From Escherichia coli (GTDB lineage: Bacteria > Pseudomonadota > Gammaproteobacteria > Enterobacterales > Enterobacteriaceae), in assembly GCF_024502345.1 (NCBI RefSeq), contig NZ_JALDNN010000001.1: a DNA stretch of 64,000 nt; one strand, given 5' to 3'. The notes below the pieces were generated by a model that saw only the letters and a program-made list of their open reading frames with translations, made no database searches and had not been told where the DNA came from. Position numbers and translations under genes: made by a program. Of the stretch, positions 38,902 through 57,946 are shown in pieces (position 1 is the first letter of the stretch; each line of letters starts with the position of its first letter).

Positions 38902-38977
<76 letters not shown>

Positions 38978-39031
38978 GTTTAAAAGACATCGGCCTCAAG
39001 CGGATGTCTGGCTGAAAGGCCTGAAGAATTT

Positions 39032-39105: not shown

Positions 39106-39117
39106 CTTTCTTCCCGA

Positions 39118-39204
39118 GCCCGGATGGTGGAATCGGTAGACACAAGGGATTTAAAATCCCTCGGCGTTCGCGCTGTGTGGGTTCAAGTCCCACTCCGGGT
39201 ACCA
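39118..39204 (+). tRNA. leuZ: tRNA-Leu (UAA anticodon), class II tRNA with long variable arm; integration site of the downstream island
   Basis: GCCCGGATGGTGGAATCGGTAGACACAAGGGATTTAAAATCCCTCGGCGTTCGCGCTGTGTGGGTTCAAGTCCCACTCCGGGTACCA. Confidence 0.9.
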
Positions 39205-39245
39205 TGGGAAACATCAGAATAATCAAAGCAATAAGCAGTGTCGTT

Positions 39246-39269
39246 AAACCACCTCCGGGTGGTTTTTTT
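39246..39269 (+). terminator. Rho-independent terminator of the glyW-cysT-leuZ operon
   Basis: AAACCACCTCCGGGTGGTTTTTTT hairpin plus T-run. Confidence 0.8.
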
Positions 39270-39445
39270 GTGCCTGAAATTCATGTCCTGTGCATATCCT
39301 GTGCTCACGGGGTGCGATGAGCTGCAATCTCCAGCCTGGCAATGACGAATCGAACGTGTCGCCTCCAGCATAGAGAACCAGGCCGCTTTGCCTGTTTTCC
39401 GGTACGCTTCCGGGAAGGGGGGCCTGCTGAGCAAGCTGTAATGCT

Positions 39446-42847: not shown

Positions 42848-43282
42848 ATGCAAACCCAATATGCCTTAAAACAGGCAGGATTAACTCTGCCTGTTACTAA
42901 AGAATTTCAGCAGCATATTACTACTCTTCTGGCAAATCAGGTTTTACAAAAAATAACTGAGGCAGTGGTTATTAATTTCCGCGATCCGGACTACAGTGCA
43001 GAATCCGGGGGCTTTCATCCCGTTGAAATACGGTTTATCCGTAAGAATAATGAATGGTATTTTGATTATGTCACAGATTTTAGTTATATGGGGCGTGTCT
43101 ACCCTGAGCTGGAAAAAGAAATTGATTTTTGCTGGTCGGGGAATTATGTCTTCCATTATCTGATTGGGGATATTTCACTGGCAGCAGAGAGGAATGAACT
43201 CTGGTCTCTGTGGGAGCGTAATTTTATGGAGTATCTCTCTATGGGGATTTACCGGGTAACGGTAACTGTGGAAAGTTGTTGA
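42848..43282 (+). CDS. Hypothetical protein
   Basis: 144-aa ORF, co-oriented. Confidence 0.45.
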   Translation: MQTQYALKQAGLTLPVTKEFQQHITTLLANQVLQKITEAVVINFRDPDYSAESGGFHPVEIRFIRKNNEWYFDYVTDFSYMGRVYPELEKEIDFCWSGNYVFHYLIGDISLAAERNELWSLWERNFMEYLSMGIYRVTVTVESC

Positions 43283-43583
43283 CCCGTTATGAACAGGAAG
43301 AAAGCGGGCGGCTTTGTAATCTACAGCATGTGGTGTGCATCACAGCATGGAGATGATGTCTCTTTTTCCTGGCTGTTCGCATAAACAAGTGCAGACACGG
43401 GGGATCTCAGATCCCTCGTGATTTTTGCCCCCTATGGTGCATTCTTCTGTAGCAGGGTGATAACGGTTAATCCATTACCCCAACGACAGTATTACACCGG
43501 TAATAAATGTTCATGAATACAGTTAGTTATGTGGGTTTTGAGGTGGGCTATGTCATCGTTGACGATAACTGAAGGTTTTACAG

Positions 43584-43811
43584 ATGTATAAAACTCGCGG
43601 TGAAAGGATCGCAGAAAGGCTGTGCTGGATATTACTTCAACTGTATACCGGTAATACGGTATCGGTTAATGATATATGTCAGCGTTTCGCGGTCAGTCGC
43701 CGAACCGGACAGCGTGATTTGTTGAGAGTTGAAACTGTAACGGAAACTATTTCACCTGGAAGGGTAAGGCTGGCAAATTTGATAAGGGAACGAGTTAGAC
43801 GAAATTTTTAA
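43584..43811 (+). pseudogene. Remnant of a WYL/BrxR-type regulator gene (N-terminal HTH only)
   Basis: 75-aa ORF resembling the N-terminal HTH of the 300-aa regulator at 44773-45675; no WYL domain follows. Confidence 0.4.
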
Positions 43812-43892
43812 TCGAATCCATATCAATTCTATAAAATATGAAACTTAACGGGAGTAAATATACACTCCCGTTATAATGCAACCTTTTTTTAA

Positions 43893-44711: not shown

Positions 44712-44772
44712 GGTAACTCCATTTTTTAGCTTACAAAAATAGCACTCAATGAAAATTATATTATCCGTGTCA

Positions 44773-45675
44773 TTACGGGGCGTTACTTGGCTGGGTGTAA
44801 CGTTTCAGTGCGGATTGTATATCTTCAGCAAGTTGTTGACGGATTGAGGCCGGTTGTATTACTTCGACATCCGGTATCCAGTATTTCATTAAAGGCATTA
44901 TCTGATCTGTGTGTGTTACACGTGATATCACCAGTAAATCGCCAGACCGGGAAGTATGAATTATTTCCTGTCCTGGCAATAGATGACGGTGGGTAAACCA
45001 CGGAGCAACATGTGCGGAAACTGAAATAAGAACTTCGATAAGGTCTTCGCTATACCAGATACCATCTGTCTTTTCTATTTTTTCATTAATTTCGGGGATT
45101 ATCCTGAAAGAGATATTACTCATGCAAACGTCTTTGACAGATGAGATAACAAAGCTTTTTAATGTACTGTCATGGGCGGCAGCGAGATACCACAATCCGT
45201 TGTCATTAACCAGCCTGTATGGCTCAACAGCCCGAAACTCTTTATCTTTGTAATTAAAATTTACTTTCTTCTGTGACAGGATGGCATCGGATAATACATT
45301 CAGAATTGACATGAATGATCCGCAGTTTTCGTATGGACGTTGTTTTATCAGAAACGGGTTGTTTTTCGTGTTACCTAACAAAATACTCAGTAGTCTGTCA
45401 TCCCAGCGAGGGAACAGCCCTTCAATACCCAGGATGCGCGTGAAATGACGTAAATCAGCATTGCTGCGTTGACCGAGAACACCGTCAGACAGGCGATAGC
45501 GACCATTTTGTCGAATCAGATTAAGATAGGACAGGCGCTGAGTAAGATCACGACGGATAGTTTTTTCGCAAACGTTAAATTCCTCAGATAACTCCCGGAC
45601 GGCTAGTGACTCACCATTGTTCAGGCGAGTTAATATCAATCCGAGTCGATATCCAAGTTTATCGTGCTTACCCAT
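44773..45675 (-). CDS. HTH + WYL-domain transcriptional regulator (BrxR/CapW-like, defence-island regulator family)
   Basis: 300-aa ORF; N-terminal DeoR-like HTH ([22 protein letters not shown]), central WYL-type segment ([10 protein letters not shown]). Confidence 0.65.
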
Positions 45676-45723
45676 TCGTTTATCCGGTTAATGCCAGCGA
45701 AGAGGATATTTTCAGCAAAGTAA

Positions 45724-45836
45724 CGGACAGGATGAGTCCACTTTTACTGTGACGGAGAAAAAAATTAACTCATTAATTATCAATATATTAAAACATTGCT
45801 GGAATCATCGAATAACATGTGGACTCATCCTGTCCA
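45724..45836. promoter_or_regulatory. Perfect 17-bp inverted repeat pair upstream of the WYL regulator gene (candidate operator)
   Basis: GGACAGGATGAGTCCAC at 45724-45740 and its exact reverse complement at 45820-45836. Confidence 0.45.
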
Positions 45837-46054
45837 TGTGTATTTTTACGTTCAGGGTGATAATTATTATCCTGACCTGTACATGACATGTTTTTGCTGC
45901 ATATTTGACCATGCACTTTTGCCATCAAGTCGGAGAGGCAGGGGGGAACGTAAGATCCGAAGGTTAGAGAGGTTATCAGCAATTACAATGATGATTAATA
46001 TTTTCATAATATCGGAGAACATCATATTAGTTGAAATAACATAAAGGTGGTTCT

Positions 46055-46381
46055 ATGTATTTACATATCAGAAAGTATCAACTCGTAAATGCGAGATGGC
46101 GTGATGTCATTGATCTGACAGATTATGAAGAAACAATCAGGCAGGTTGTCGGTACATTATTTGGAAATGATTTTATTGAGGTCAGCGTTGAAACAAATTG
46201 TTTTACTCTGACAGTAAACAGTACAAGCAGTAAAATACCACACGGCATACTGGTGAATATGGGGAAAAGGCTGGCGGCTAATCTCCAGAGTATCACCTGT
46301 CATGCCATGCGGATCTATCATGTAAATGGCCATCCTGACGCGCGGCAGTTATTTCACTGTTTTGATGCCGATTGCCTGTGA
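46055..46381 (+). CDS. Hypothetical protein
   Basis: 108-aa ORF convergent with the piPolB gene; weak support. Confidence 0.3.
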   Translation: MYLHIRKYQLVNARWRDVIDLTDYEETIRQVVGTLFGNDFIEVSVETNCFTLTVNSTSSKIPHGILVNMGKRLAANLQSITCHAMRIYHVNGHPDARQLFHCFDADCL

Positions 46382-46429
46382 TTAAGCCCCCAACTTCTGT
46401 TAAAGGAGTTGGGGGAGATTTAACGGTTA

Positions 46430-49093
46430 TCAGACTGGAAGACAGAATGTCGGATATTTACGGGCTATGATATCCATCAGTGACTTCATTCGCGGTGTTA
46501 CAGAACTAAATTTCATTTGGGGTATTTTTGCTCTTACCGCATTTTTTACATCAGTCACCGTTACTGAATAGCCTTCTGACGTCAGCCATTCAGCAACCTC
46601 TTTACAGGAATAACTTTTTTTATCTTTCAGCATCAGCCCCCATTGGCACTGAGTCAGCGCCCGGAGAAATAGTCTGACTAAAATATCATCACTACGTTTG
46701 CTTCCGACTTTTAGTTTCATATCAGAAAACACCGTCCGGCAATAGAGAAAATCACACCAGTCATCCCAGTCAGCCAGGGTCTTCAGTGTATGCGTTTGCC
46801 GCCAGTCGTCGAAAAGGGAGCGCTGCTGCAGAGCCTCTTCCATATTATCCCATGGGCGGGAAAACATCAGTAAATGCCCTTCATTCATGGCGGGCTGTAC
46901 GGGCTGGCGTTTGAAATCGAATTCCAGATTAAGACGGATATCCTGTTCCCGGGATACCAGATCGCTTTCCGACAGCCACATCTCACGCGTTGATATCAAC
47001 GTACTTCGGGATAAAGTCTGACCGGGTAAACGATTAAGGTAAAGATCTACCATATAGTCGTTATAGTCACTGCGTGGAATATCGGCAGGAGGTTTGACGC
47101 CAGCCCTGGCATGAACAACAGGTTTTCCCTGAATAGCTCTATAGGTTAACTGCCCCCGGGTTTTCATGGCGATAAGCTGGCTGACTTCATGCTTACATGT
47201 CAACATTGATGAACCCGGATCAACAATATCGCACAGCGACTGGAAGCGGGAAGACAGTGGACCGCTCATGTTTATCTTGTTAAGTGGGCAATTTGTCAAA
47301 AAGCCATCGGTTGTGACGCTGACAACCGATGAATCAGAAGGCAAAGCATTCATGAGTTCCCCGGCAACGGCGCGGATAAATCCCGTTACATGCGCAGCAA
47401 AGAATGGCTGAGTAACCGATGATGGTGGGAGGGATCTGTTTAATCCACGGGCAGTATCAAAGGCGGTTTTGGCGCGAAGGCCCTGAGCAAGTTTGCCATA
47501 AAGCGAGTTGCCAATTTCTTTCCAGAATTTCTCCTCCAGAGAACCTTTAATATGGCGATTACGGTTCTCACGGACCTGTTGAACAAAGGGAAGAAACACC
47601 GATGTTGATTCGCTGTTATGTGGGGAGGTGTCACAGATCCAGGGGACGATGATCCCATTATGGATCGTCATCTCTGCCCCGAGCGACAGAGCAAGTTCGA
47701 TTTCAGGTGCCGTTGCCCATGATTCGCCACTTAATGGAAAGAATAACCCATATTGATCGGTCCGAACCGGCAGGCTGGGATAGGGAACTGATTCCGGGAA
47801 CCGAAATGTGACAAGCGCAAATCCCATTACATGCCCACAGTAATCGTCCGGATTTTTACTGAGGCGGATGTTCCCGTAATCGGGTGTGAGGATATCTAAT
47901 AGCCCGGTGGTATACGCTCCAGCCAGATCGTAGTCATACCAGTGATCAGACGGTGTAACCCCCATCATAAAACACTCATTGCGTCCGCCGTGGTAACAGT
48001 TGATCGGGAACGTTTCAAACAACTCTCTTGAAGGAACACTGGCGGGGTTTTTAATCGTCCGGAATGCCTGTTTCTCCGTGAGCCAGAGTTCACGGGTTTT
48101 AATGTGTGTCCCAAGGCAGACTTCAGGAGACATATTGTTTTCTTTAAGTGTTTTGGTGAACCGTGAAACTGCCATCGCCCCGATGGTGGCGGGGACACGA
48201 TCAATCATCAGCTCCCGGGCGCAAAAATTGCGAACCTGTAAAGCATAACGAACCGCAATCTCGGCATCCCGCAGAGCATAGGCTTCAAACCCTGCTCTGT
48301 CGCCCAGAAGATATTCACGCATATTGGTTATGGAATAAGGTGCAGGAATGGTGAGTTTGGGAAGACCCAGTAATTCACCACATTCAGCCAGACCCATACC
48401 CCCGGGAGTGATAAGCAGTGTATCGATGAAAGCTACGTTACTGCAACGCGGAGGGGAAGTTCGTTTGTCAAACATTATCTGTTCAGTCTTTACGCGACGT
48501 TCCTGCTGTTCATCAAAATCGATACCGTAACGATTTTTGAAGCTGCTGACAGTACCGCGTATTCCTTTCAGAAGAATTTTGTAGTCTGACCAGAAATTGG
48601 CAAAGGAGGCGATATCCGCACGAATGAAATGCGCATATATATTAATAATACCGGGCCATTTTGTAATCACACCCGTTTCAAGAAGCGGTGTAATCGTTTG
48701 ACAGAGAAATTCCTTAAAAGACAGCCGGGATTTTTTCTGTGAGTCAGGTGGATAGATAATGTTCGATATACCTGTATTATCGGGTAAGATAACATAACTC
48801 TGATATGACAGAATATCATTCTGTCGTGTTTCAGGGTTGAAAACATATTCGGTATCAAAACCGATATGGAGTGTCAGGTCACTTGAAATAACAGATACTT
48901 TTTTTGATGCAGGTGGTATCACAGGATAATCATCAAGCGTTTTAGGTCTTTTACGATTGAGCGCTGGCTCTGAAGTCACGGACTGATACCCCGAGGCGGC
49001 AGCGAGGATGTCCTGCAAATTATTGCTCATAGTTAACTCCGAAAAAATGCCGGGAGCTGTGTCCCGGCATAAAGAATCAGGATTTAATAACAT
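46430..49093 (-). CDS. Family B DNA polymerase of the primer-independent (piPolB) type, pipolin hallmark gene
   Basis: 887-aa ORF; Exo I FDTE; motif B KEIGNSLYGK; motif C-like VTTDGF; KTRG in place of the canonical KxY motif (IAMKTRGQLTY). Confidence 0.8.
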   Translation of the reverse strand: MLLNPDSLCRDTAPGIFSELTMSNNLQDILAAASGYQSVTSEPALNRKRPKTLDDYPVIPPASKKVSVISSDLTLHIGFDTEYVFNPETRQNDILSYQSYVILPDNTGISNIIYPPDSQKKSRLSFKEFLCQTITPLLETGVITKWPGIINIYAHFIRADIASFANFWSDYKILLKGIRGTVSSFKNRYGIDFDEQQERRVKTEQIMFDKRTSPPRCSNVAFIDTLLITPGGMGLAECGELLGLPKLTIPAPYSITNMREYLLGDRAGFEAYALRDAEIAVRYALQVRNFCARELMIDRVPATIGAMAVSRFTKTLKENNMSPEVCLGTHIKTRELWLTEKQAFRTIKNPASVPSRELFETFPINCYHGGRNECFMMGVTPSDHWYDYDLAGAYTTGLLDILTPDYGNIRLSKNPDDYCGHVMGFALVTFRFPESVPYPSLPVRTDQYGLFFPLSGESWATAPEIELALSLGAEMTIHNGIIVPWICDTSPHNSESTSVFLPFVQQVRENRNRHIKGSLEEKFWKEIGNSLYGKLAQGLRAKTAFDTARGLNRSLPPSSVTQPFFAAHVTGFIRAVAGELMNALPSDSSVVSVTTDGFLTNCPLNKINMSGPLSSRFQSLCDIVDPGSSMLTCKHEVSQLIAMKTRGQLTYRAIQGKPVVHARAGVKPPADIPRSDYNDYMVDLYLNRLPGQTLSRSTLISTREMWLSESDLVSREQDIRLNLEFDFKRQPVQPAMNEGHLLMFSRPWDNMEEALQQRSLFDDWRQTHTLKTLADWDDWCDFLYCRTVFSDMKLKVGSKRSDDILVRLFLRALTQCQWGLMLKDKKSYSCKEVAEWLTSEGYSVTVTDVKNAVRAKIPQMKFSSVTPRMKSLMDIIARKYPTFCLPV

Positions 49094-49715
49094 TTACTAC
49101 AGATTTGAAAATATCGGTTTTGTGTGATTCATCATCTACATGGATAAAGGAAACGAGTTTCCTGCCTGCTTTAATCAGGATACCGCGTTGCGTCTTTTCC
49201 ACAGACGGGGTAACGTGTGCAGATAACAGACAATGTTCATGTAAATGAAGAAACTTTTTTGAGGCGTAGCCGCCATGTAATCGGGCTTGAATGTCAAGAT
49301 ACATATCATCAAGAGAACCGGGTTCTCCTGATTCACTCAATACCGGATAACCCTTCTTATCAAAGAGGTTAAGGATAGATTTACTATCATGTTCGAACAG
49401 GGTAACACCGTAAATGTATTTCATTCGAAAGGTGAGGGAATCGGTGGTGTAGACCTCCTCCTGACGATTGAAATTTTTGAGACGCCTGGCTAATTCATTA
49501 AAAACAGCACGAGCAGTAGCCGTGTCCTGCAGGGTGTAGGTATAAAGTACGAAGCCATCTGTGCCGATGAGCTTTACTAAGTTGTCCATAATCGTGATAG
49601 CGAGAACTAATGCAAAGGACAGATATTTTTCATCGTTGTCTACAGCTGTGTTTGCTGCTTCAGGAAGAATGTTCAGTGCATTATTAGCATTATTTGCTGT
49701 GTTCTTAGTAACCAT
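49077..49715 (-). CDS. Hypothetical protein, overlapping and probably translationally coupled to piPolB
   Basis: 212-aa ORF; stop overlaps the piPolB start; start overlaps the alpA-like stop. Confidence 0.5.
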   Translation of the reverse strand: MVTKNTANNANNALNILPEAANTAVDNDEKYLSFALVLAITIMDNLVKLIGTDGFVLYTYTLQDTATARAVFNELARRLKNFNRQEEVYTTDSLTFRMKYIYGVTLFEHDSKSILNLFDKKGYPVLSESGEPGSLDDMYLDIQARLHGGYASKKFLHLHEHCLLSAHVTPSVEKTQRGILIKAGRKLVSFIHVDDESHKTDIFKSVVNVIKS

Positions 49716-49905
49716 TTATATCACCTTTAAGTTTGTTTTGACGATGTGCATTTTCCCACTCAACAATATCATCAAGAGAGAATCGTATAGCCCGCCCAAT
49801 TCTGATGAAGGGCGGGAGTTTTCCTGGGTTGCGCGATATATCTGACGCAACCGTGGATGCGGAAAGATTAAATCTTTCTGCAAACTGCTTAATGGTTAAA
49901 TACAT
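49705..49905 (-). CDS. AlpA-family HTH protein (excisionase / transcriptional regulator)
   Basis: 66-aa ORF, MYLTIKQFAERFNLSASTV...; typical partner of integrases in islands. Confidence 0.65.
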   Translation of the reverse strand: MYLTIKQFAERFNLSASTVASDISRNPGKLPPFIRIGRAIRFSLDDIVEWENAHRQNKLKGDINGY

Positions 49906-50055
49906 AAACCTCCGGTTTTAGAGAAGAAGAAACCACGCGGATTTAATATCAATCCACATTCTTTGATGACTTAATGCAGGGCCCTGCAGAAGCATGCAAT
50001 GACAATACCGTCCTTAAACGAGTGTTGCATCAATCACGAATCACAGATCATAGGT

Positions 50056-51186
50056 TCATTTTTTCGTGTCATAACTTTCTATGACCTGAGAAACCACTGC
50101 GTGCGATGTCGCTGCATTGTGAAAAGCGTAGCGACGGGTCGCCGTGAGTGAATGGTGATTTAGCAGATGGGAAGCGATTGCAATATCCCCGGTCGCCTGT
50201 AGTACCCGGGTGGCAAAGGTACGGCGCAGGTCATGCATCCGCAGGTTATCAATGTTGGCATCCCGACAAATACGGGCAAAGGTTGCACGCGGATATGCCA
50301 GAGGGCGGGCATTGTCGGTTAGTTGTGGAAAAATGTAAGTTTTGCTGAGCATCAGGTCTTGCTGGCACTGGACAACTGCAATGGCTGGAGGTGCAAGTGG
50401 GCAGGTGAAAGGGTGTCCGGACTTTGTATCAGGCAGTATGAGTTGATGCATATCCGGGTGCCAGTACTCCCATTTCAGGGTACATACCTCACCAATACGC
50501 ATCCCCGTATAAAGAGCAAGCAATATAGAATCAGCTGCCGGTGTTTGCAGCGCTGTTGCCGCGTCAATAAAGCGCGGGATTTCTGTCGCTGATAGTGTGC
50601 GATAGCGAATGTTATTTTCTTTCAGATAGCGGACATGTGACATCGGGGAATGTGTGATCCATCCAGCACGTACTGCCAGAGAGCATATTTTGGACAATAT
50701 TGCGAGGATACGGTTTACTGTTGACGGACGTAATTTTTCCCGTAAGCCAGCAGCATATTGTTCTAGTTCCCCTGCCGTGATGTCGCGAAGTTGCCGCTTG
50801 CCCCAGAACGGGCGAACGTAGAGGTTGAGTTTTGACAACTCTGACTGAGGACTCTTTTTATACAACTGCAAATCCGGTAGCCACAGGTCATTGATGGCCT
50901 GTTCCACAGTGAATCGACGGGACTGAACCGCAAGACGATTTTTATCAGCAAGCAGTTTCATCACATGCTGACGGGCATCCTCAACGCAGAGCTGAGGGAA
51001 CTGACCCAGGGTTTCATATATACGCTGATTGTTTATAGTGGCACGAAAGGCCAGCGTGATCCGATTGGGATACACCAGAGCACGCAGGTTTTGGCAGTGA
51101 ATATCACGGTATTCCTGACAACCCGTGAGGGGATGTGGAAGTTGGTGAAGTGATTTGTTGCTGAAACGCAGATCCAGAATAGGCAT
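50056..51186 (-). CDS. Second tyrosine recombinase (XerC/D-like integrase)
   Basis: C-terminal catalytic motifs HDLRRTFATR, LLNHH, TATRRYAF. Confidence 0.8.
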   Translation of the reverse strand: MPILDLRFSNKSLHQLPHPLTGCQEYRDIHCQNLRALVYPNRITLAFRATINNQRIYETLGQFPQLCVEDARQHVMKLLADKNRLAVQSRRFTVEQAINDLWLPDLQLYKKSPQSELSKLNLYVRPFWGKRQLRDITAGELEQYAAGLREKLRPSTVNRILAILSKICSLAVRAGWITHSPMSHVRYLKENNIRYRTLSATEIPRFIDAATALQTPAADSILLALYTGMRIGEVCTLKWEYWHPDMHQLILPDTKSGHPFTCPLAPPAIAVVQCQQDLMLSKTYIFPQLTDNARPLAYPRATFARICRDANIDNLRMHDLRRTFATRVLQATGDIAIASHLLNHHSLTATRRYAFHNAATSHAVVSQVIESYDTKK

Positions 51187-51329
51187 CGTATTTCTCCTGT
51201 AAATGACACTGGAAAAATACGATGTGAGGTTATAGTCTGCCAGTTACAGCTTTCACAGTTCATCAGGTGAAAAAACGCAGATTCGGATATAATGGCAACA
51301 CAATTCCATGTCGCCATTATATTAAGAAA

Positions 51330-52460
51330 CTACAGTTTCATGATCTTGTTCGCTATTTTTTCGAAGTAAACCTCATTCTTAAGAAGAGTGATATTGTTTG
51401 TTTGAACACCCAGACCACTGGAGGTTGACTGGAAGTTGAGTGAACCACTTATCACTGTGGACTTTCCTGATAAAAATGAAATCAACTCCTTGGAAGATGG
51501 TGCCCACTCAGGGTTTAAGAGTAATGCAATATAGATATATGTCTTACGAAGCAATTGTTCTATATCTTTTTTATGCCCTGTAGTGTTTTGCTTACCTTTA
51601 ATGCAAATAGATTTGATTATGAACTCATCAGGGCTGGTTAAAGGCGTTTTAAACTCACTCAGTGATCCATCGTTATGAATGACTTCATAAGGCAGCATAG
51701 ATAAAATGATCAATGCAATCATTTTAGGATGATAAAGGTAGTTATCACGAATGATTTTTCCTGCCTTCATTGTATTGAGCGTTGTTTGAATAAATACAAA
51801 AAGATATTCAGAGCAAAAGTAACAAAACACAAGCCAGGATAGGTCAATGGATGGAATGTTAATATCCTTAGGTAGTTTGTTTAGCCAGTATTCAGACTTC
51901 AAAAAGGTCCTGATTTCAACAGTATATTCATGCATTTTTGCGCTGAAATCAAGCATTGCTACTTGACCTGATTGTTCCGTAACTGTGTGGTCTATAAATG
52001 TTAGTGTATTGCACATTTTATCCAGCGTGTTTTGAAAACAAGAAAGGAGTTCGGCATTATTATTACCATTAACCGCAGATGAAAGTTCAGTTTTAATAAA
52101 TGCATCCAGTAGCATACAGATTTCTTTCGGAATGACATTTTTACGGGATTGCTGTGAATAGAAATGTACTGCCAGTAAATTAAAGGCAGTGCACTCCTTT
52201 TTTAACCATTGTTCGAGCACTGGGACGTGCTGAAAAAAATTGATATGCTTAGCAGTAGATGCTGATGGAGATAGTACATGAAGAATATCTACAGCAGGCT
52301 TCATTTGCAATATTTGATCGGATTCGGTAGTCGTCATTAGTTCCAGTAATTGCTGTTCAGAAAATAGTTTAGACAGGTGATCAATGTCTTTTTGGTATTG
52401 ATTAAGTTTTGTTAAATTCCCCGGTATACGGGTTACATTGTTTTTCATTTTCTCGAACAT
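51330..52460 (-). CDS. Hypothetical protein (AT-rich gene, no recognisable motifs)
   Basis: 376-aa ORF, Lys/Asn/Ile-rich; long uninterrupted frame in a strongly AT-rich stretch. Confidence 0.5.
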   Translation of the reverse strand: MFEKMKNNVTRIPGNLTKLNQYQKDIDHLSKLFSEQQLLELMTTTESDQILQMKPAVDILHVLSPSASTAKHINFFQHVPVLEQWLKKECTAFNLLAVHFYSQQSRKNVIPKEICMLLDAFIKTELSSAVNGNNNAELLSCFQNTLDKMCNTLTFIDHTVTEQSGQVAMLDFSAKMHEYTVEIRTFLKSEYWLNKLPKDINIPSIDLSWLVFCYFCSEYLFVFIQTTLNTMKAGKIIRDNYLYHPKMIALIILSMLPYEVIHNDGSLSEFKTPLTSPDEFIIKSICIKGKQNTTGHKKDIEQLLRKTYIYIALLLNPEWAPSSKELISFLSGKSTVISGSLNFQSTSSGLGVQTNNITLLKNEVYFEKIANKIMKL

Positions 52461-52966
52461 AATTTTATCCTCGTTTGAATTATTACACTGATTTAAAAAG
52501 TAGCATGTCGTGTTAGCGAGGTAATCCTAAAACGTGAATGGCAGCAGGGGCAAGCTTGAATCTGCGTAAGGATATGGCTTGAATTTAATGGTGTAATCAG
52601 TGAGTTAGAGGCTTATAGCCATTTAAATACAATAAGTTATGATAATATATGGCGGGTGTAAATCGGTTAGTTTTTATGGTTAAAATATGAGCATTGTGAG
52701 ATTTGAGATATGATGGTTTTTAAATTACATACAAGTTACCCCTGATGATCAGTATTAATACCAGAATGATACATGCGAGCAGCACCCAATCCTGTACTAT
52801 TTATGATGGCTATACAAGGCTGAAACTTTGAGTCGTATGTTGCCAGGAGGATTAATGTCCACAAGGCCCAGATAGAATGATTTCTCAGATATTAAAGTTG
52901 AAACTTATTAACTATGTGAGAGGCTGATATTTATTCAGTCTCTCATTTGTTTTTATCGTTTTAAAG

Positions 52967-54202
52967 TTAAAAGGAAATAAATAATGCCTTCCGCCGATGA
53001 ATCAGTGTACTGATTTCTCGAAAATCAGCCTCAATACTACCAACATCACCAAAGACTTCACCACTAATCTCTCTTCGATTTTTCATGAAATTGGTGCTTA
53101 ATAAGCTTTCTTTTTTTAGTGTCACTAATTTTGGTTTTATATCGTTATAGAAATGCTTACGGCTTACCCTGATGCTATGAATCGAGTAGTAAACTGTTTT
53201 ATACATCAAAAATATAAGTAACTGGCCGAGAAGATATTCTTTTTCAATGTATTTATATTGAGAGGATTTTTCGCGTTTCGCCAGGTAGAAAACATGAGGT
53301 GCGATGATGGTGGGGATGAAATCCAGTGCTGGAGAGGTTTTGGTTTTTTCTGTTTCTCTTCCGGATTGAAGATGTTGAAGTACAGAGTATACAATGCTTA
53401 AAATTATGGCGTTACTTATATTATTAATTGCAGTTGGGTAAATATGCAGATTGCTTATCAATTCTGAAAGGCAAAGTAAAACACCAGTGATGTTGGGTTT
53501 TCTGCCGGAGATTGTGGTGCTGTTGAAAATGTGACGATTCTTACGACTTATATTGACAAGTTTATGAGTGCAGAACTCTATATGTTCGACGATTTTATCT
53601 TGACTATTTTTAATGTATTTTGAAATGTTAGTGATCCGGCCATTCAACGTTAGTTCATCAAGCAATATATCATTTTTAATATTGCGAATTTCATCGCAAT
53701 GTTCACATTGAGAAACTATCTCATGTAATACATAACTCGACGTATTGCGGGGTGACGCTGATATGTAATCTAAAATAGAAGGCTCGATTTTGATTTTTTG
53801 TTTGTATTTTTTAATGCACTGTTTGATTGTTTTTTGTAGAGTATTTGAGATGTGTTTTTTATATTCTTTTAGAAAATCTTGCTCTAAAAAGAGTGAGGAG
53901 AAGATCAACTGCTGGCGAGATAATTTAATCTCAGGCTTGATCAATTTAATCCGAAAAACTCTTCCCTCCAACTCATAGCTGAACATGGAAGATAAGTCAT
54001 AGTGGGGTGATAAATGTTCGAGTAACGACATTCGTGTATTCATTAGCCGCTTGAATTTATGGTCAGCATACATAAGTGTTTTTTTTATTTGCTCATCATA
54101 AAGTGGGCCGATAGCGCAGTTGGCAATACTCATTCTATCCGGAGACCTCCAGTCAGCAGGGGAATCACATTGACGGTCATCATTACTATCAAAGGGCATC
54201 AA
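52967..54202 (-). CDS. Hypothetical protein (AT-rich gene, no recognisable motifs)
   Basis: 411-aa ORF, similar composition to the preceding gene; divergent from hsdM. Confidence 0.5.
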   Translation of the reverse strand: MMPFDSNDDRQCDSPADWRSPDRMSIANCAIGPLYDEQIKKTLMYADHKFKRLMNTRMSLLEHLSPHYDLSSMFSYELEGRVFRIKLIKPEIKLSRQQLIFSSLFLEQDFLKEYKKHISNTLQKTIKQCIKKYKQKIKIEPSILDYISASPRNTSSYVLHEIVSQCEHCDEIRNIKNDILLDELTLNGRITNISKYIKNSQDKIVEHIEFCTHKLVNISRKNRHIFNSTTISGRKPNITGVLLCLSELISNLHIYPTAINNISNAIILSIVYSVLQHLQSGRETEKTKTSPALDFIPTIIAPHVFYLAKREKSSQYKYIEKEYLLGQLLIFLMYKTVYYSIHSIRVSRKHFYNDIKPKLVTLKKESLLSTNFMKNRREISGEVFGDVGSIEADFREISTLIHRRKALFISF

Positions 54203-54505
54203 CGTTGCCGATTATGGATCATGTCAGCTCCACACACCAGAACGGGTGATATATGGATCATCATTACCCCAACGGCAGTTTTACACCATGGCTAATATGG
54301 ATGCTATCTTACTAAGATAATTGGTTTTTAGCGAGTGACGAGCCCGGTTGTGTCAGTCTGTCTCATGTCGATATTACGGGGATGATGCAAACCTGAATGC
54401 TGCGATATTGGCGTGTCAGGGGAGGCATCTTACGGTATCATTTACCGCAATTTTTAAGATGCAAAGCCCTGCATCGCTAGCTTTTTCTTCAGACCAGGAT
54501 GATTC

Positions 54506-56029
54506 ATGAACGACAAAATCAGTCAGGACACGATCAACAAAGCCCTGTGGGCCGCGTGTGATACGTTCCGTGGCACCATCAGTGCTGATACCTATAAAGA
54601 CTTTATCCTTACCATGCTATTCCTTAAGTACATTTCGGATGTCTGGCAGGATCACTACGACGAATATAAAGTGCAATATGGTGATGAGCCGGAACTGATT
54701 GAAGCGATGATGGCGAACGAGCGCTTCGTGTTGCCGAAAAGCGCCAGTTTCTATGCGTTGTACGAGCGACGTCATGAGCCGGGCAACGGTGAGCGTATCG
54801 ATCAGGCGCTGCATGCGATTGAAGAAGCCAACGGCACCAAACTGAAAGATGCCGGGAAAAGTGTCTTCCAGGATATTTCGTTTAACACTGACCGTCTGGG
54901 CGAAGAAAAACAGAAGAACACCATCCTGCGTCAGTTGCTGGAAGACTTTGCCGGTGAAGATCTTAACCTGAAGCCAAGCCGTGTCGGTACGCTGGACGTT
55001 ATCGGTAATGCTTACGAATATCTGATCAAAAACTTTGCTGCCAGCGGTGGGCAGAAAGCCGGGGAATTCTATACCCCACCGGAAGTTTCGGATCTCATCG
55101 CTGAACTGCTTGATCCTCAACCCGGTGATACAATCTGCGACCCGGCCTGTGGTTCCGGTTCGTTGCTAATGAAGTGCGGGCGTAAAATTGTCTCAGGACA
55201 TGATAGCCGCAACTATGCGTTGTTCGGTCAGGAAGCGATTGGCTCCACGTGGTCGCTGGCGAAAATGAACATGTTCCTGCACGGCGAAGATAACCACAAA
55301 ATCGAGTGGGGCGATACCATTCGTAACCCGAAGTTGTTGGATAAAAACGGCGACCTGATGCTGTTTGATATCGTGACCGCAAACCCACCGTTCAGCCTGG
55401 ATAAGTGGGGCCATGACGAGGCCGAGAATGATAAGTTTGGGCGTTTCCGTCGCGGTGTACCGCCGAAGACTAAAGGGGATTACGCCTTTATCTCGCATAT
55501 GATCGAAACCCTGAAACCGGGAACGGGTCGTATGGGCGTAGTGGTGCCGCACGGTGTGCTGTTCCGTGGCTCCAGCGAAGGCAAAATTCGTCAGAAGCTG
55601 ATTGATGAAAACCTACTCGATGCGGTGATTGGCCTGCCTGAAAAACTGTTCTACGGTACGGGTATTCCTGCTGCAATTCTGATTTTTAAAAAGCAGAAAG
55701 TGGATGACAAGGTGCTGTTTATCGACGCCAGCCGTGAATTTAAGGCAGGTAAAAACCAGAACCAGCTCAGCGCAGAAAACATCGAGAAAATCGTCAAGAC
55801 CTACCGTGATGGCGATAGCGTCGAGAAATATGCCTACCTTGCCAGCCTGAAGGAGATTCAGGACAACGATTACAACCTCAATATTCCGCGCTATGTCGAT
55901 ACCTTTGAAGAAGAAGAAGATATCGATTTACTTGCCGTTCGTGCTGAGCGGGAGGAATTGAAAGCGGAACTGGCGAAATTGGAAACGCAGATGGCGGGTT
56001 ATCTGGAGGAGCTGGGTTATGGTGCCTAA
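54506..56029 (+). CDS. hsdM: Type I restriction-modification system methyltransferase subunit HsdM
   Basis: 507-aa ORF; SAM-binding motif DPACGSGSLL and catalytic NPPF (TANPPFSLDKW). Confidence 0.9.
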   Translation: MNDKISQDTINKALWAACDTFRGTISADTYKDFILTMLFLKYISDVWQDHYDEYKVQYGDEPELIEAMMANERFVLPKSASFYALYERRHEPGNGERIDQALHAIEEANGTKLKDAGKSVFQDISFNTDRLGEEKQKNTILRQLLEDFAGEDLNLKPSRVGTLDVIGNAYEYLIKNFAASGGQKAGEFYTPPEVSDLIAELLDPQPGDTICDPACGSGSLLMKCGRKIVSGHDSRNYALFGQEAIGSTWSLAKMNMFLHGEDNHKIEWGDTIRNPKLLDKNGDLMLFDIVTANPPFSLDKWGHDEAENDKFGRFRRGVPPKTKGDYAFISHMIETLKPGTGRMGVVVPHGVLFRGSSEGKIRQKLIDENLLDAVIGLPEKLFYGTGIPAAILIFKKQKVDDKVLFIDASREFKAGKNQNQLSAENIEKIVKTYRDGDSVEKYAYLASLKEIQDNDYNLNIPRYVDTFEEEEDIDLLAVRAEREELKAELAKLETQMAGYLEELGYGA

Positions 56030-57266
56030 GGGGTGGAAACGAGTACCGATTAAGGATGTGTGCGAGTCTATAATCGATTGCGTAAATAAAACAGCTCCAG
56101 TTGTTGATTATGAAACTCCCTTTAAGATGATTCGTACCACGAATGTACGTAATGGAAGGGTTAATACTGAAGACGTCAGATATGTGACTGAAGACACTTA
56201 CCTGCAATGGGTTCGACGCGGAAAACCGCAAGTAGGTGATATCATCTTTACACGTGAAGCACCTGTAGGAGAAGCAGGTGTCCTGCAAGATGCTGAAGGT
56301 ATTTTCCTCGGGCAAAGAACGATGATGTATCGAGCTGATACCTGCCTTTCAGATAACTATTTCTTGTTCTACTCGTTATCAAGTCCCTTCTGCCAGAAAC
56401 AAATTGAAGATTTTAGCAATGGCGGTACTGTAGCTCATATGAGAGTTCCAGATTGCGGTGAGATATTGATCAATCTACCGCCTTTCCTCGAACAAAAGAA
56501 AATCGCCCAAATCCTGTCAACCTGGGATAAGGCGATTTCGGTGACGGAAAAGCTTCTCACCAACAGCCAGCAGCAGAAAAAAGCCCTGATGCAGCAATTG
56601 CTTACTGGGAAGAAACGCTTGCTGGATGAGAATGGGACAAGGTTTTCTGAAACTTGGAAATTATATGCCTTATCGAAATTATTTCAGAGAGTTACGACTA
56701 AAAACAATGGAAAAAGCAACAATGTTGTAACCATTTCTGGACAACATGGTTTGATTAAACAGGAAGACTTTTTCAAGAAAACAGTCGCATCAGATACCCT
56801 TGATGGTTATTTCTTATTAAAAAAAGGGCAGTTTGCTTACAATAAAAGTTACTCTAATGGTTATCCGATGGGTGCAATAAAAAGATTAAATCGATATCCA
56901 GAGGGAGTAGTAACAACTCTGTATATATGTTTTGAACTTACTACACCCAAAAAATCATGTGGTGACTATTGGGAGCATTATTTTGAGTCAGGGCTTTTGA
57001 ATAACAGTTTGTCTCAAATTGCTCATGAAGGTGGACGGGCTCATGGCTTGCTAAATGTAAAACCTTCGGACTTCTTTTCATTAAAAGTTGCGGTTCCTGG
57101 CTTTGAAGAGCAACAAAAAATCGCATTAGTTCTGTCCGCTGCCGACACCGAAATCTCCACACTGGAGAAAAAACTCGCCTGCCTGAAAGACGAGAAGAAA
57201 GCCTTGATGCAGCAACTGCTGACCGGGAAACGTCGGGTGAAAGTGGATGAGGCGGTTGCCGTATGA
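56019..57266 (+). CDS. hsdS: Type I restriction-modification system specificity subunit HsdS
   Basis: 415-aa ORF with two target-recognition domains separated by conserved repeats (KKALMQQLLTGKKRLL and KKALMQQLLTGKRRVK); overlaps the hsdM end. Confidence 0.85.
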   Translation: MVPKGWKRVPIKDVCESIIDCVNKTAPVVDYETPFKMIRTTNVRNGRVNTEDVRYVTEDTYLQWVRRGKPQVGDIIFTREAPVGEAGVLQDAEGIFLGQRTMMYRADTCLSDNYFLFYSLSSPFCQKQIEDFSNGGTVAHMRVPDCGEILINLPPFLEQKKIAQILSTWDKAISVTEKLLTNSQQQKKALMQQLLTGKKRLLDENGTRFSETWKLYALSKLFQRVTTKNNGKSNNVVTISGQHGLIKQEDFFKKTVASDTLDGYFLLKKGQFAYNKSYSNGYPMGAIKRLNRYPEGVVTTLYICFELTTPKKSCGDYWEHYFESGLLNNSLSQIAHEGGRAHGLLNVKPSDFFSLKVAVPGFEEQQKIALVLSAADTEISTLEKKLACLKDEKKALMQQLLTGKRRVKVDEAVAV

Positions 57267-57946
57267 AACTGACGAAAAGCGGTCCACTGACTGACCGGGA
57301 AATCGACTGGCTGGAAGAAATATTAATGAAGTATGGAATGGATGATTCTGTACTCTGTTTCTCTGAGCTGGATGGATTGCTGACGGCGATTTTATCAGGT
57401 CCAAATATGGTTTCACCCAATATCTGGCTGAGTGCTATTTGGGGAGGAGGCGATTATCATCCGAAATGGTCATCTGAGAGAGAGATGGAGCGTTTTGTCA
57501 GTCTGTGTTTTCAGCATATGAACGATATCGCTGGTTGCCTTTATGACGCCCCTGAACTGTTTGAGCCGATTTTCAATGAGCGTGAGGTAAAGGGGGAAAA
57601 ATATACCATTGTGGAAGAGTGGTGTTTTGGTTATATGAAAGGAAAGTCACTGGATGACTGGTCTGGTCTTCCCGGTGAGTTACGGCCTTCTCTGGAAGTG
57701 ATCGCTCTTCATGGCGTGGAGAAGAATTTTCCTGTACTTGAGAAAATGACCGGAGAGCAGTTTGAGAAAAGTATTTCCCTTATTCAGCCTGCTGCACTGG
57801 CACTTTATCAGTACTGGTTGTCAGTGAGAATGTCAGAGGCATCATCCCGGCCTGTTCCAGTGAAGGGGGCAGAAAACATGCCCGGGCGAAATGACCCGTG
57901 TCCGTGTGGCAGCGGTAAAAAATTTAAGAAGTGCTGTCTGCATTGA
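57263..57946 (+). CDS. YecA-like (UPF0149) protein with C-terminal SEC-C zinc motif, embedded in the Type I R-M operon
   Basis: 227-aa ORF; C-terminal GRNDPCPCGSGKKFKKCCLH; start overlaps the hsdS stop (ATGA). Confidence 0.8.
   Translation: MKLTKSGPLTDREIDWLEEILMKYGMDDSVLCFSELDGLLTAILSGPNMVSPNIWLSAIWGGGDYHPKWSSEREMERFVSLCFQHMNDIAGCLYDAPELFEPIFNEREVKGEKYTIVEEWCFGYMKGKSLDDWSGLPGELRPSLEVIALHGVEKNFPVLEKMTGEQFEKSISLIQPAALALYQYWLSVRMSEASSRPVPVKGAENMPGRNDPCPCGSGKKFKKCCLH

What the first reader, a model, noticed from the sequence alone, without database searches (positions are those of the whole stretch)
54242..54288. Second copy of the junction repeat in the divergent promoter region between orf411 and hsdM (copy B)
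Copy B lies 40 bp upstream of the 411-aa ORF start (minus strand) and about 220 bp upstream of hsdM. Copy A is followed by the remnant of a WYL-regulator gene, so the Type I R-M module may once have had, or responds to, a similar regulator. Alternatively the repeat marks the boundary where the R-M/GmrSD cargo block was spliced into the element.
Basis: inference. Interest (0 to 1): 0.5.

Follow-up and report, generated by a model that had tools for sequence, protein, structure and literature searches.

The report
Conserved twin motif inside a pipolin
A 24-base sequence occurs exactly twice, in the same orientation and at the same two gene junctions, in a family of mobile defence islands (pipolins) of E. 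coli and related bacteria; it is real and strongly conserved, and is most likely a protein-binding control site at two promoters rather than a splice scar, though what binds it is unknown.

Summary
The repeat is real. Copy B (54244-54287) and copy A (43455-43498) share GGGTGATA-N10 and a 24-nt core, TTACCCCAACG-nnn-GT-n-TTACACC. No Markov resample of the window gave such a pair.

The island is a known element: an E. coli pipolin integrated at tRNA-Leu (leuZ). The core occurs only in such pipolins, at two fixed positions:
- A lies between the DUF2787 terminator and a conserved 75-aa HTH gene. This gene is intact and under purifying selection; it is not a WYL remnant.
- B lies between the hypervariable orf38x/orf411 head of the IntP2-Exc-piPolB operon and hsdM.

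Twenty of 24 core positions are invariant in Escherichia, Citrobacter, Buttiauxella, Intestinirhabdus, Enterobacter, Serratia, Salmonella and Edwardsiella, while the flanks are unalignable.

About 500 genomes and 38 metagenome hits show no A x B recombinant. A and B differ in the core centre within most elements, and the element-side flanks are the variable ones. A -35-like TTTACA at the 3' end of the core is followed by -10-like hexamers at fixed spacing.

Best reading (0.45): a protein-binding operator/promoter module. The binder is unknown (small HTH or Exc most plausible; WYL unlikely). Main rival (0.2): IntP2 recombination sites bracketing the piPolB module. The motif was not found described in the pipolin papers read.

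The parts
54244..54287 (+). Copy B unit: GGGTGATA (54244-54251), a 10-nt variable stretch, CA, then the 24-nt core TTACCCCAACGGCAGTTTTACACC (54264-54287)
   Evidence: the core is identical or differs by 1 base in all lineages
43455..43498 (+). Copy A unit: GGGTGATA (43455-43462), a 10-nt variable stretch, CA, then the core TTACCCCAACGACAGTATTACACC (43475-43498)
54280..54310 (+). Predicted rightward promoter at B: -35-like TTTACA (54280-54285, the 3' end of the core), a 19-nt spacer, TGc, and -10-like TATCTT (54305-54310)
   Evidence: PWM scan. TATC[T/C/A][T/C] sits at the same register in all eight B lineages although the spacer sequence differs. This is a prediction only; no transcription start site (TSS) data are available.
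43491..43523 (+). Predicted rightward promoter at A: -35-like ATTACA (TTTACA in other lineages) and a weak -10 region (ATGAAT/TACAGT; GAnATT at 16-nt spacing in other lineages)
   Evidence: The promoter is weak in the E. coli lineage. The distance from the core to the start of the small HTH gene is conserved at 80-85 nt.
43584..43811 (+). Small stand-alone HTH gene (75 aa, HTH_11/DeoR-like), directly downstream of copy A; candidate autoregulator
   Evidence: dN/dS 0.03-0.09; 75-79% aa identity across lineages
43396..43420 (+). Intrinsic-terminator hairpin ending the IntSXT-DUF2787 transcription unit, 55 nt left of the A core; conserved in all lineages
52967..54202 (-). orf411, first gene left of copy B in this lineage. 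It is absent from other lineages, where the orf376 homolog abuts B.
51330..52460 (-). orf376, a member of the hypervariable 'orf38x' family (36-50% aa identity between pipolins). It heads the IntP2 operon in most lineages.
50056..51186 (-). IntP2-type tyrosine recombinase
   Evidence: PMC11551731
49705..49905 (-). AlpA/Xis-like excisionase (HTH_17), 66 aa; candidate binder
46430..49093 (-). piPolB (primer-independent family-B DNA polymerase), the hallmark gene of pipolins
   Evidence: PMC7385651, PMC11551731
44773..45675 (-). HTH-WYL-WCX regulator
54413..54441 (+). hsdM proximal promoter (GTGTCA-17-TATCAT). It is conserved in hsd modules that lack copy B.
39149..39279 (+). The pipolin's outer att repeat at leuZ. 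A 133-bp copy recurs next to yecA in complete relatives.
   Evidence: PMC7385651

Best explanation
The two copies are instances of a cis-acting, protein-bound control element specific to one clade of Enterobacterales pipolins. The invariant blocks TTACCCCAACG and GT-n-TTACACC contain two direct TTAC[C/A]CC boxes 17 bp apart. I read them as the recognition site of a sequence-specific DNA-binding protein. The 3' end of the core (TTTACA) doubles as the -35 hexamer of a rightward promoter.

At A this module heads the small HTH gene, or whatever gene replaces it. At B it sits in the divergent region between the head of the orf38x-IntP2-Exc-piPolB operon and the cargo-facing hsdM leader. One factor could therefore co-ordinate the element's own mobility and replication operon with its cargo side.

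Shown: the existence of the element, its copy number, orientation, fixed synteny, extreme conservation, and the positional conservation of the hexamers.

Inferred: protein binding, promoter activity, and the identity of the binder. Candidates, in order, are the small HTH encoded next to A (autoregulation), the AlpA/Xis-like Exc, and then a host factor. The WYL regulator is unlikely.
For: 1. Conservation. 20 of 24 core positions are invariant across 24 distinct A and B sequences, from lineages whose piPolB and IntP2 proteins are only 65-80% identical. The flanks are unalignable or replaced: there are at least five unrelated versions of the B left flank.

2. Site architecture. Variation is confined to 4 central positions between two invariant blocks, as expected for a bipartite binding site. 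A and B of the same element differ there in 6 of 8 lineages.

3. Location and spacing. Both copies lie in intergenic promoter regions, and a gene follows each on the same strand. The distance from A to the small HTH start is 80-85 nt in all lineages. The distance from B to the hsdM ATG is 217-222 nt, although the intervening sequence is unalignable.

4. Promoter signals. The -35-like TTTACA is followed by TATC[T/C/A][T/C] at exactly 19 nt in all eight B lineages, and by GAnATT at 16 nt in the non-E. coli A lineages. The spacers differ in sequence.

5. Retention through rearrangements. When downstream or upstream DNA is replaced, the core is kept. This is seen in L050, where a 160-aa ORF replaces the HTH gene; in L023 and L062, where new cargo follows an hsdM stub; and in L002, where a different orf38x allele ends at the left edge of the unit.

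6. Specificity. The motif occurs only in these two contexts: 467 E. coli genomes with a median of 2 places each, and 38 metagenome matches that are all A-type or B-type.

7. Precedent. Small autoregulated HTH repressors that bind direct repeats at defence-island or type I R-M promoters are known, for example RptR (PMC12255303).
Against: - No transcription start site or binding data exist, and the promoter calls are weak. The B spacer is 19 nt, and the E. coli-type A has only ATTACA and a poor -10.
- The core has no dyad symmetry, which most HTH dimers prefer.
- L050 keeps both cores but lacks the small HTH and WYL genes. L063 has a small-HTH homolog with no motif. The leading candidate binder is therefore not obligatorily linked to the motif.
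- In L017, two diverged units (X and B') arrived with a foreign piPolB-IntP2 segment, share a derived centre (CCCCTAATGG), and bracket that module. X points into the 3' end of piPolB, where a promoter has no obvious use.
- All copies lie on the same strand. An orientation-free operator would not require that.
Confidence: 0.45

Rival explanations
1. The two units are recombination sites (att- or lox-like) for the IntP2 tyrosine recombinase and its Exc partner. They would bracket a nested, excisable piPolB-IntP2 element, or mark the junctions of a cointegrate between that element and an IntSXT defence island.
For: - The repeats are direct and bracket exactly the segment that encodes IntP2, Exc and piPolB, with variable accessory genes next to each repeat, as in integrated elements.
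- In L017 a foreign IntP2 (34% identity) and piPolB (48% identity) segment brings its own pair of diverged units, which share a derived centre and bracket a compact 6.5-kb int-xis-polB module.
- All copies lie on one strand.
- PMC11551731 suggests that IntP2 was acquired from another mobile genetic element.
Against: - The composite-junction search found no precise A x B deletion among the 529 E. coli genomes with a match. The single near-case, strain I4, is an illegitimate deletion that keeps both copies.
- None of the 38 metagenome occurrences has a hybrid A-left/B-right or B-left/A-right context.
- A and B differ in the central positions within most elements. This is incompatible with a shared crossover spacer, if the spacer is central.
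- The core has no inverted recombinase-binding arms.
- The element-side flanks, which would carry the attP arm sites for an integrase with an arm-binding domain, are the hypervariable ones. IntP2 itself is 98.7% identical between the window and L002.
- Similarity between A and B extends beyond the core (GGGTGATA on the left, a TTAC block on the right). This is not expected for attL/attR.
- The breakpoints of the L017 module swap lie 183-235 bp outside the units.
Confidence: 0.2
2. The units are two copies of an ordinary sigma-70 promoter cassette with no dedicated regulator. The region upstream of the -35 would be conserved because it contacts RNA polymerase or a host nucleoid protein.
For: A -35-like TTTACA and positionally conserved -10-like hexamers are present. 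A gene follows each copy on the same strand.
Against: - Eleven invariant G+C-rich bases upstream of the -35 do not resemble an UP element.
- The hexamers and spacers are suboptimal.
- hsdM already has its own proximal promoter.
- Twenty invariant positions across genera exceeds what a promoter alone needs.
Confidence: 0.12
3. The repeat is the operator of the WYL regulator at 44773-45675, which would couple the type I R-M cargo to a BrxR/CapW-like sensor.
For: - WYL regulators are core pipolin genes and often control neighbouring defence genes (PMC11551731 and the references it cites).
- The 11-mer CAGGGTGATAA of the left block of copy A recurs in a palindrome 180 bp upstream of the WYL gene, in the E. 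coli lineage only.
Against: - There is no core copy upstream of the WYL gene.
- That region has a different dyad, TGGAC-N6-GTCCA, which is conserved in three lineages and fits a WYL autoregulatory operator better.
- Both cores are intact in L050, which has no WYL gene.
- The core is not palindromic.
Confidence: 0.07
4. The units are iteron-like or DnaA-box-like replication elements, or another non-transcriptional DNA site (partition, looping anchors) used by the piPolB module.
For: Repeated TTAC[C/A]CC boxes occur within and next to the core. TTTTACACC resembles the relaxed DnaA box TTWTNCACA at 8/9 positions (my reading of the sequence). The copies bracket the polymerase module.
Against: - Only two boxes per site are well conserved.
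- From the literature as I recall it, piPolB initiates without sequence-specific origins.
- Two origins in direct orientation 10.8 kb apart have no known precedent.
Confidence: 0.05
5. The repeat is a functionless relic of an old duplication, kept similar by gene conversion or by recurrent homologous recombination between pipolins ('boundary sequence').
For: B coincides with a homology breakpoint between the window and L002. Pipolins are mosaic (PMC11551731).
Against: - A neutral 24-mer would not stay 20/24 invariant while adjacent bases are saturated with change across eight genera.
- 24 bp is below the efficient length for RecA-mediated exchange.
- Most mosaic breakpoints are not at the core.
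Confidence: 0.04

Closest known systems
Operators of small autoregulated HTH repressors at defence-island / type I R-M promoters (RptR of the EPEC RptR-RMS-DarTG-M48 island, PMC12255303)
   Same: A small (about 79 aa) HTH protein is encoded next to its site. Short direct-repeat boxes overlap promoter elements. The hsd operon has the same architecture (hsdM-hsdS-embedded gene-hsdR-M48). Tight control of a toxic R-M operon is needed on a mobile island.
   Different: The window has no rptR gene. The small HTH here gives no sequence match to any PDB chain, and RptR has a deposited crystal structure. RptR boxes are contiguous 9-bp repeats around the palindrome TAGCTA that overlap the -10. Here there is a 24-nt bipartite core upstream of and overlapping a -35, with one copy 10.8 kb away from the hsd genes. 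TAGCTA occurs next to B only in some lineages.
Operators of WYL-domain regulators of defence islands (BrxR / CapW / PafBC type)
   Same: A WYL regulator is a core gene of the island, and a conserved motif lies upstream of a defence operon.
   Different: From my own knowledge of that family, those operators are inverted repeats upstream of the regulator's own gene. The core is not a dyad, is absent upstream of the WYL gene, and persists without the WYL gene.
attL/attR of a nested integrative element with a P2-type integrase and an AlpA/Xis directionality factor
   Same: Direct repeats bracket int, xis and a replication gene. Accessory genes cluster next to the repeats.
   Different: No empty site or circle junction was found. 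There are central mismatches between the partner sites, no inverted core-type sites, and variable element-side arms. Similarity extends beyond the core on both sides.
Simple tyrosine-recombinase sites (lox, FRT, dif: arm-spacer-arm)
   Same: The length is 24-28 bp, with conserved outer blocks and a variable centre.
   Different: The outer blocks are direct repeats, not inverted. The centre differs between the two copies of one element, which would block exchange.
Pipolin terminal att repeats at tRNA-Leu (PMC7385651, PMC9710591)
   Same: Same element family; direct repeats.
   Different: Those repeats are about 130 bp long, overlap leuZ and delimit the whole island (39149-39279 here). The 24-nt core is internal, unrelated in sequence, and was not mentioned in the pipolin papers I read.

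Membership tests
Pipolin (piPolB-encoding integrative element) - the context of the repeat | Encodes a piPolB family-B polymerase | tested here: met
   The 887-aa ORF at 46430-49093 is annotated as a DNA polymerase / type-B family protein in RefSeq relatives. It has 566 representative homologs at E<=1e-30, with weak PF03175 hits in relatives.
Pipolin (piPolB-encoding integrative element) - the context of the repeat | Integrated at the 3' end of tRNA-Leu and flanked by ~130-bp direct repeats | tested here: met
   leuZ is at 39118-39204. The 133-bp repeat at 39149-39279 recurs beside yecA in L001, L002 and L005. The right end lies beyond the window.
Pipolin (piPolB-encoding integrative element) - the context of the repeat | Gammaproteobacterial core synteny: IntSXT, DUF2787, WYL, piPolB, Exc, IntP2 (PMC11551731) | tested here: met
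attL/attR pair of a tyrosine recombinase | Direct repeats flank a segment that encodes the recombinase | tested here: met
   A and B flank IntP2/Exc.
attL/attR pair of a tyrosine recombinase | Presence/absence polymorphism with a precise single-copy junction, or a circle junction | tested here: not met
   No precise junction among the 529 E. coli genomes matching the composite query. The I4 deletion keeps both copies. None of the 38 metagenome contexts is hybrid.
attL/attR pair of a tyrosine recombinase | The crossover region is identical in the two partner sites | tested here: inconclusive
   The central positions differ between A and B in 6 of 8 lineages, but the invariant blocks are identical. 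The position of any crossover is unknown.
attL/attR pair of a tyrosine recombinase | Inverted core-type binding sites, and conserved arm sites on the element side | tested here: not met
   The core has no inverted symmetry. The B-left and A-right flanks are the variable ones, although IntP2 is 98.7% identical between the window and L002.
Regulated sigma-70 promoter with operator | -35 and -10 hexamers at 16-19 bp, positionally conserved, with a gene downstream on the same strand | tested here: met
   TTTACA + 19 nt + TATC[T/C/A][T/C] in all B lineages; TTTACA + 16 nt + GAnATT in non-E. coli A lineages; weak in E. coli-type A.
Regulated sigma-70 promoter with operator | A mapped transcription start and demonstrated protein binding | not testable with these tools
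   The only in-vivo data set found (CRP ChIP-seq in H10407, PMC4287617) has a peak on a CRP motif 131 bp left of core A, not on the core.
WYL-regulator operator (BrxR/CapW type) | A dyad-symmetric site upstream of the regulator's own gene that co-occurs with the regulator | tested here: not met
   No core lies upstream of the WYL gene. A different dyad is found there. The cores are intact in WYL-less L050.
RptR operator of type I R-M islands | An rptR gene upstream of hsdM, and two or more TAGCTA-type 6-bp palindromes in 9-bp direct repeats over the -10 | tested here: not met
   No ORF lies between B and hsdM. TAGCTA occurs once, and only in some lineages. The small HTH has no PDB sequence match.

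The most novel reading that the evidence does not exclude
The twin units are the sites at which a self-replicating piPolB-IntP2-Exc mini-element is recombined into, and could be released from, an IntSXT-type defence island. 'Bimodular' pipolins would then be cointegrates of two mobile elements joined at a lox-like 24-bp site. The diverged unit pair that travels with the foreign polymerase module in L017 would be the footprint of this process.
Probability: 0.18. Interest if true: 0.75.

Novelty: new member of a known kind. Interest (0 to 1): 0.5.

Why it matters
Pipolins are a widespread class of defence islands. No excision has been detected so far (PMC7385651), and the pipolin papers read here say nothing on how they are regulated or replicated. 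PMC11551731 lists their core genes but no cis element.

A 24-nt sequence that is more conserved than any pipolin protein occurs exactly twice, and brackets the polymerase-integrase operon at the core/cargo border. That gives an experimental handle:
- It can serve as a probe to pull down the controlling protein.
- It provides two promoters to fuse to reporters.
- It offers a direct PCR test of whether the polymerase module is a separable element.

It would also explain how new defence cargo inserted behind the retained B-hsdM leader inherits regulated expression.

Tried and rejected
- **Known RNA family or riboswitch:** the Rfam scan of 43000-55000 found nothing relevant. The GGGTGAT/ATTACCC hairpin is not kept at B in other lineages.
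- **Part of the hsd module:** rejected. Related hsd modules on plasmids share only the proximal promoter from 54408 onward and lack the core. The 341 Klebsiella plasmids that carry IS1|copy B|hsd all share one IS1 junction, so they represent a single capture event.
- **AlpA-type antiterminator site:** the P. aeruginosa AlpA is a larger, Q-like protein with a 6-bp site between the -35 and -10. It is not comparable to the 66-aa Exc here.
- **RptR operator:** rejected.
- **CRP ChIP-seq peak 'at copy A' in H10407:** after calibrating a ~177-bp coordinate offset between the paper and RefSeq, the peak lies on a CRP motif at 43329-43344, not on the core.
- **Third copy at 52736-52762:** this sequence (TTACCCC...CAGTATTAATACC) lies in a lineage-specific insert that is absent from the Edwardsiella and Salmonella relatives. 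I do not treat it as functional.
- **Leftward promoter abutting B:** a good extended -10 (TGTTATACT) exists only in the L023/L024/L050 flank type and is not positionally conserved.
- **More distant pipolins (piPolB 42-45% identity; L018, L021, L022):** these have no such motif pair. L022 has an unrelated triple repeat around its integrase gene.
- **Searches that added little:** the protein search for piPolB homologs returned only near-identical E. coli sequences and wasted one search. PHROGs, PADLOC and NCBIfam gave no function for orf376, orf411, orf212 or the small ORFs of the IntSXT arm. The viral-contig scans added nothing.

Full report
**Observation.** Copy B is at 54244-54287 and copy A at 43455-43498, both on the + strand. 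Each unit consists of GGGTGATA, ten divergent bases, CA and a 24-nt core: TTACCCCAACGGCAGTTTTACACC in B and TTACCCCAACGACAGTATTACACC in A. Apart from a 54-nt tandem duplication at 19486-19593, this is the only direct pair in the window that reaches 24/26 identity. None of 40 first-order Markov resamples produced one. No other copy exists in the window at up to 7 mismatches, and neither half of the core recurs.

**Context.** The window is E. coli chromosome. The tRNA genes glyW-cysT-leuZ lie at 38902-39204, and an island starts there. Its first 131 bp (39149-39279) recur beside yecA in complete relatives. The gene order is:
- IntSXT-type integrase (40237-41484), three small ORFs, DUF2787
- copy A
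- a 75-aa HTH gene, DUF726, the WYL regulator, and an 887-aa family-B polymerase
- orf212, AlpA/Xis-like Exc, IntP2-type integrase, orf376, orf411
- copy B
- hsdM-hsdS-(embedded gene)-hsdR-M48, then a DUF262/GmrSD gene.

This is the published architecture of enterobacterial pipolins: a conserved core near tRNA-Leu and a distal defence cargo (PMC7385651; PMC11551731). Those papers describe the ~130-bp terminal att repeats. Text searches of both papers, for terms such as 'promoter' and 'intergenic', found no mention of an internal motif.

**Distribution.** In 5,426 complete E. coli genomes the core occurs in 467, at 735 places (median 2, maximum 4). Genomes with more than two places include 1916D6 (three places), which carries a second copy of the element. 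Genomes with one copy have IS1-mediated or other deletions. The core also appears at both orthologous positions in:
- Citrobacter, Buttiauxella, Intestinirhabdus and an Enterobacter MAG (piPolB about 70% identical)
- Serratia marcescens and C. freundii
- Edwardsiella and Salmonella.

A scan of public metagenome contigs gave 38 matches, every one in an A-type or a B-type context. Across 24 distinct sequences the consensus is TTACCCCAACG-n-c-a-GT-n-TTACACC, with 20 invariant positions, while the sequence on either side is replaced or unalignable. The proteins of the same elements are far less conserved: 71% identity for piPolB, 78-79% for IntP2 and 36-50% for orf376 homologs. The core is therefore under strong direct constraint.

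**Anatomy at A.** A follows a conserved terminator hairpin (43396-43420) that ends the IntSXT-DUF2787 unit. That ORF is an intact gene with these properties:
- It is 75-78 aa long, with Pfam HTH_11/DeoR hits.
- It is 75-79% identical across lineages, including L017, whose piPolB is only 48% identical.
- Its dN/dS is 0.03-0.09.
- It forms a narrow family of 26 clusters in Enterobacterales.
- It is only a distant paralog of the WYL regulator's N-terminus (27% identity).

**Anatomy at B.** B lies between the head of the leftward operon and hsdM. In most lineages the first leftward gene is a member of a hypervariable family (orf376/380/382/391/402). This window, Edwardsiella and Salmonella have an extra gene, orf411. 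The left flank of B exists in at least five unrelated versions that run right up to the unit. Homology between this window and strain EC1722-1 (L002) breaks at 51274 and resumes at 54246, the left edge of the unit. The right flank keeps AT(A/G)GCT, a variable stretch, and TATC[T/C/A][T/C] at a fixed register. The distance from the core to the hsdM ATG is 217-222 nt, although the middle is unalignable.

hsdM has its own proximal promoter (54413-54441) and a leader hairpin. These are shared with hsd modules outside pipolins that have no core, so B belongs to the pipolin platform and not to the R-M module. In Serratia and Salmonella the hsd genes have been replaced by other defence genes, but B and a 5' stub of hsdM remain. 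Cargo exchange therefore happens downstream of B, not at it.

**Promoter signals.** A simple weight-matrix scan, using hexamer frequencies from my memory of published compilations, was run on all distinct A and B regions. It finds one arrangement that is conserved in position. The 3' end of the core, TTTACA, serves as the -35, followed at 19 nt by TATC[T/C/A][T/C] at B (preceded by TGn in the E. coli type), and at 16 nt by GAnATT at A in the non-E. coli lineages. The E. coli-type A is weaker (ATTACA; a poor -10). Leftward candidates are not positionally conserved. These are predictions only.

**Tests of the recombination reading.** A and B are direct repeats that bracket IntP2, Exc and piPolB, which invites an attL/attR reading. 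I tested what could be tested.
- A composite query, A-left + core + B-right, found no precise junction in the 529 genomes that matched it. The one near-hit, strain I4, has an illegitimate deletion from inside the HTH gene to inside orf411 and keeps both copies 260 bp apart.
- No metagenome context is a hybrid of A and B flanks.
- Within single elements, A and B differ in the central positions in 6 of 8 lineages.
- The core has no inverted arms.
- The flanks that would be attP arms (B-left, A-right) are the variable ones, even between elements whose IntP2 is 98.7% identical.
- Similarity between A and B extends beyond the core on both sides.

**The L017 exception.** L017 is an Enterobacterales contig in which a 7-kb segment (L017 5907-12878) carrying orf513, IntP2 (34% identity), Exc, orf139 and piPolB (48% identity) has replaced the standard one. 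The rest of the island is 70-86% identical in DNA to standard relatives. The standard copy A is intact there. The foreign segment carries two diverged units of its own:
- B' is TTATCCCCCTAATGGGTTATTACAC, between orf513 and hsdM.
- X is GGGGTGATAACGATAATGTCAACACCCCTAATGGTTTACTACACC, between the piPolB stop and the region upstream of WYL.

Both lie on the same strand as A and share the derived centre CCCCTAATGG. So the units co-vary with the polymerase-integrase module and bracket it in a second clade. This is expected if the binder is encoded in that module (Exc, IntP2 or orf139/212), and it is also what a recombination site would show. Against exchange at the units, the breakpoints of the swap lie 183 and 235 bp outside X and B'.

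**The binder.** The small HTH is the natural candidate because A sits in its promoter region. However, L050, a metagenome pipolin, has both cores intact yet lacks the small HTH and WYL genes; a 160-aa ORF follows A there. A more distant piPolB-less relative, L063, has a small-HTH homolog with no motif. The WYL regulator is a poor candidate. Its own upstream region has no core but carries a dyad, TGGAC-N6-GTCCA (45820-45836), that is conserved in three lineages. The 66-aa AlpA/Xis-like Exc is the other plausible candidate, because directionality factors commonly bind direct-repeat boxes and act as regulators (my knowledge of P2 Cox and P4 Vis, not tested here). The core contains two TTAC[C/A]CC boxes 17 bp apart. 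No family search gave a function to the other small proteins.

**In-vivo data.** The closest sequenced relative with functional genomics is ETEC H10407 (L003, 97-99% identical). Its CRP ChIP-seq table lists a peak at '2126754' with the site TGTGGCGTGCATCACA (PMC4287617, Table S3). In RefSeq coordinates that number falls 23 bp from core A. Calibration on the yedP site shows the paper's coordinates are about 177 bp lower than RefSeq's. The peak is therefore on the CRP motif (window 43329-43344), 131 bp left of core A. It says nothing about the core.

**Verdict.** The best-supported mechanism is a protein-bound operator/promoter module present at two promoters (confidence 0.45). The main rival is a pair of IntP2/Exc recombination sites bracketing the polymerase module (0.2). 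The element is a new member of a known kind (cis-regulatory or recombination site) inside a known element family. It is of moderate interest because it gives the first concrete handle on pipolin control.

Noticed in passing
window 43329-43344: A CRP-consensus site, TGTGGTGTGCATCACA, lies between the DUF2787 stop and the terminator hairpin. The orthologous site in ETEC H10407 is a reported CRP ChIP-seq peak (PMC4287617 Table S3). The paper's coordinates run about 177 bp below RefSeq's, which must be corrected before mapping.
   Followed up: yes
window 45820-45836 (also L010 ~12712-12728, L017 ~12783-12799): A conserved dyad, TGGACnnnnnnTGTCCA, lies about 150 bp upstream of the WYL regulator gene in three divergent lineages. 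It is a better candidate WYL operator than the junction repeat.
   Followed up: partly
window 45853-45874: The palindrome CAGGGTGATAATTATTATCCTG shares the 11-mer CAGGGTGATAA with the left block of copy A (43453-43463). It is present in E. coli-type pipolins only, at the position where L017 carries its extra unit X.
   Followed up: partly
L017 12650-12695 and 6142-6166 (minus strand): Two diverged copies of the unit (X and B') share the centre CCCCTAATGG. They lie inside a 7-kb foreign piPolB-IntP2 segment (L017 5907-12878) that replaced the standard module. The standard copy A is retained at 16723.
   Followed up: partly
window 51330-52460 (orf376) and homologs in L002, L010, L023, L024, L050: The gene at the head of the IntP2 operon is hypervariable, at 36-50% aa identity, between pipolins whose integrase and polymerase are 70-99% identical. 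This suggests diversifying selection or allele replacement. No family hit was found in NCBIfam, PHROGs or PADLOC.
   Followed up: partly
window 52736-52762: The core-like sequence TTACCCCTGATGATCAGTATTAATACC lies between orf376 and orf411. It sits in an insert that is absent from the Edwardsiella and Salmonella relatives, so it is a possible decayed third copy or a chance match.
   Followed up: yes
window 54433-54484: Two terminator-like hairpins lie in the hsdM leader (3 sites found against 0.3 expected). An equivalent leader hairpin is present in an unrelated hsd module on a Klebsiella plasmid (L065). This may be an attenuator or a stabilising 5' structure.
   Followed up: partly
window 54211 onward; L004 and 341 Klebsiella plasmids: The hsdM-hsdS-yecA-like-hsdR-M48 block, with copy B attached, was captured once by IS1 (junction at window 54211). 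It is now widespread on conjugative Klebsiella plasmids.
   Followed up: yes
window 57263-57946: The YecA-like (SEC-C/UPF0149) gene embedded between hsdS and hsdR matches the PADLOC candidate defence family PDC-S12 (E=4e-99). It occupies the same slot as DarTG2 in the EPEC RptR island, and another strain (1916D6) has an additional cold-shock-domain gene there.
   Followed up: partly
L006 (E. coli strain I4) 6600-6640: A natural deletion joins codon ~12 of the small HTH gene to the 5' region of orf411. It removes the whole WYL-piPolB-IntP2 segment but leaves copies A and B 260 bp apart.
   Followed up: yes
window 19486-19593: A perfect 54-nt tandem duplication lies outside the island.
   Followed up: no
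L022 7620-7646, 8913-8939, 9164-9190: A distant pipolin (piPolB 42% identical, G+C-rich host) has three direct copies of a 27-nt motif around its integrase gene. The motif is unrelated in sequence to the core described here.
   Followed up: no
L063 (metagenome contig, orf411 homolog 45% identical): This pipolin-like island has DUF2787, an LRAT-like gene, a small HTH, and IntP2-like and IntSXT-like integrases, but a DUF927 primase-like gene in place of piPolB. It has no core motif.
   Followed up: partly
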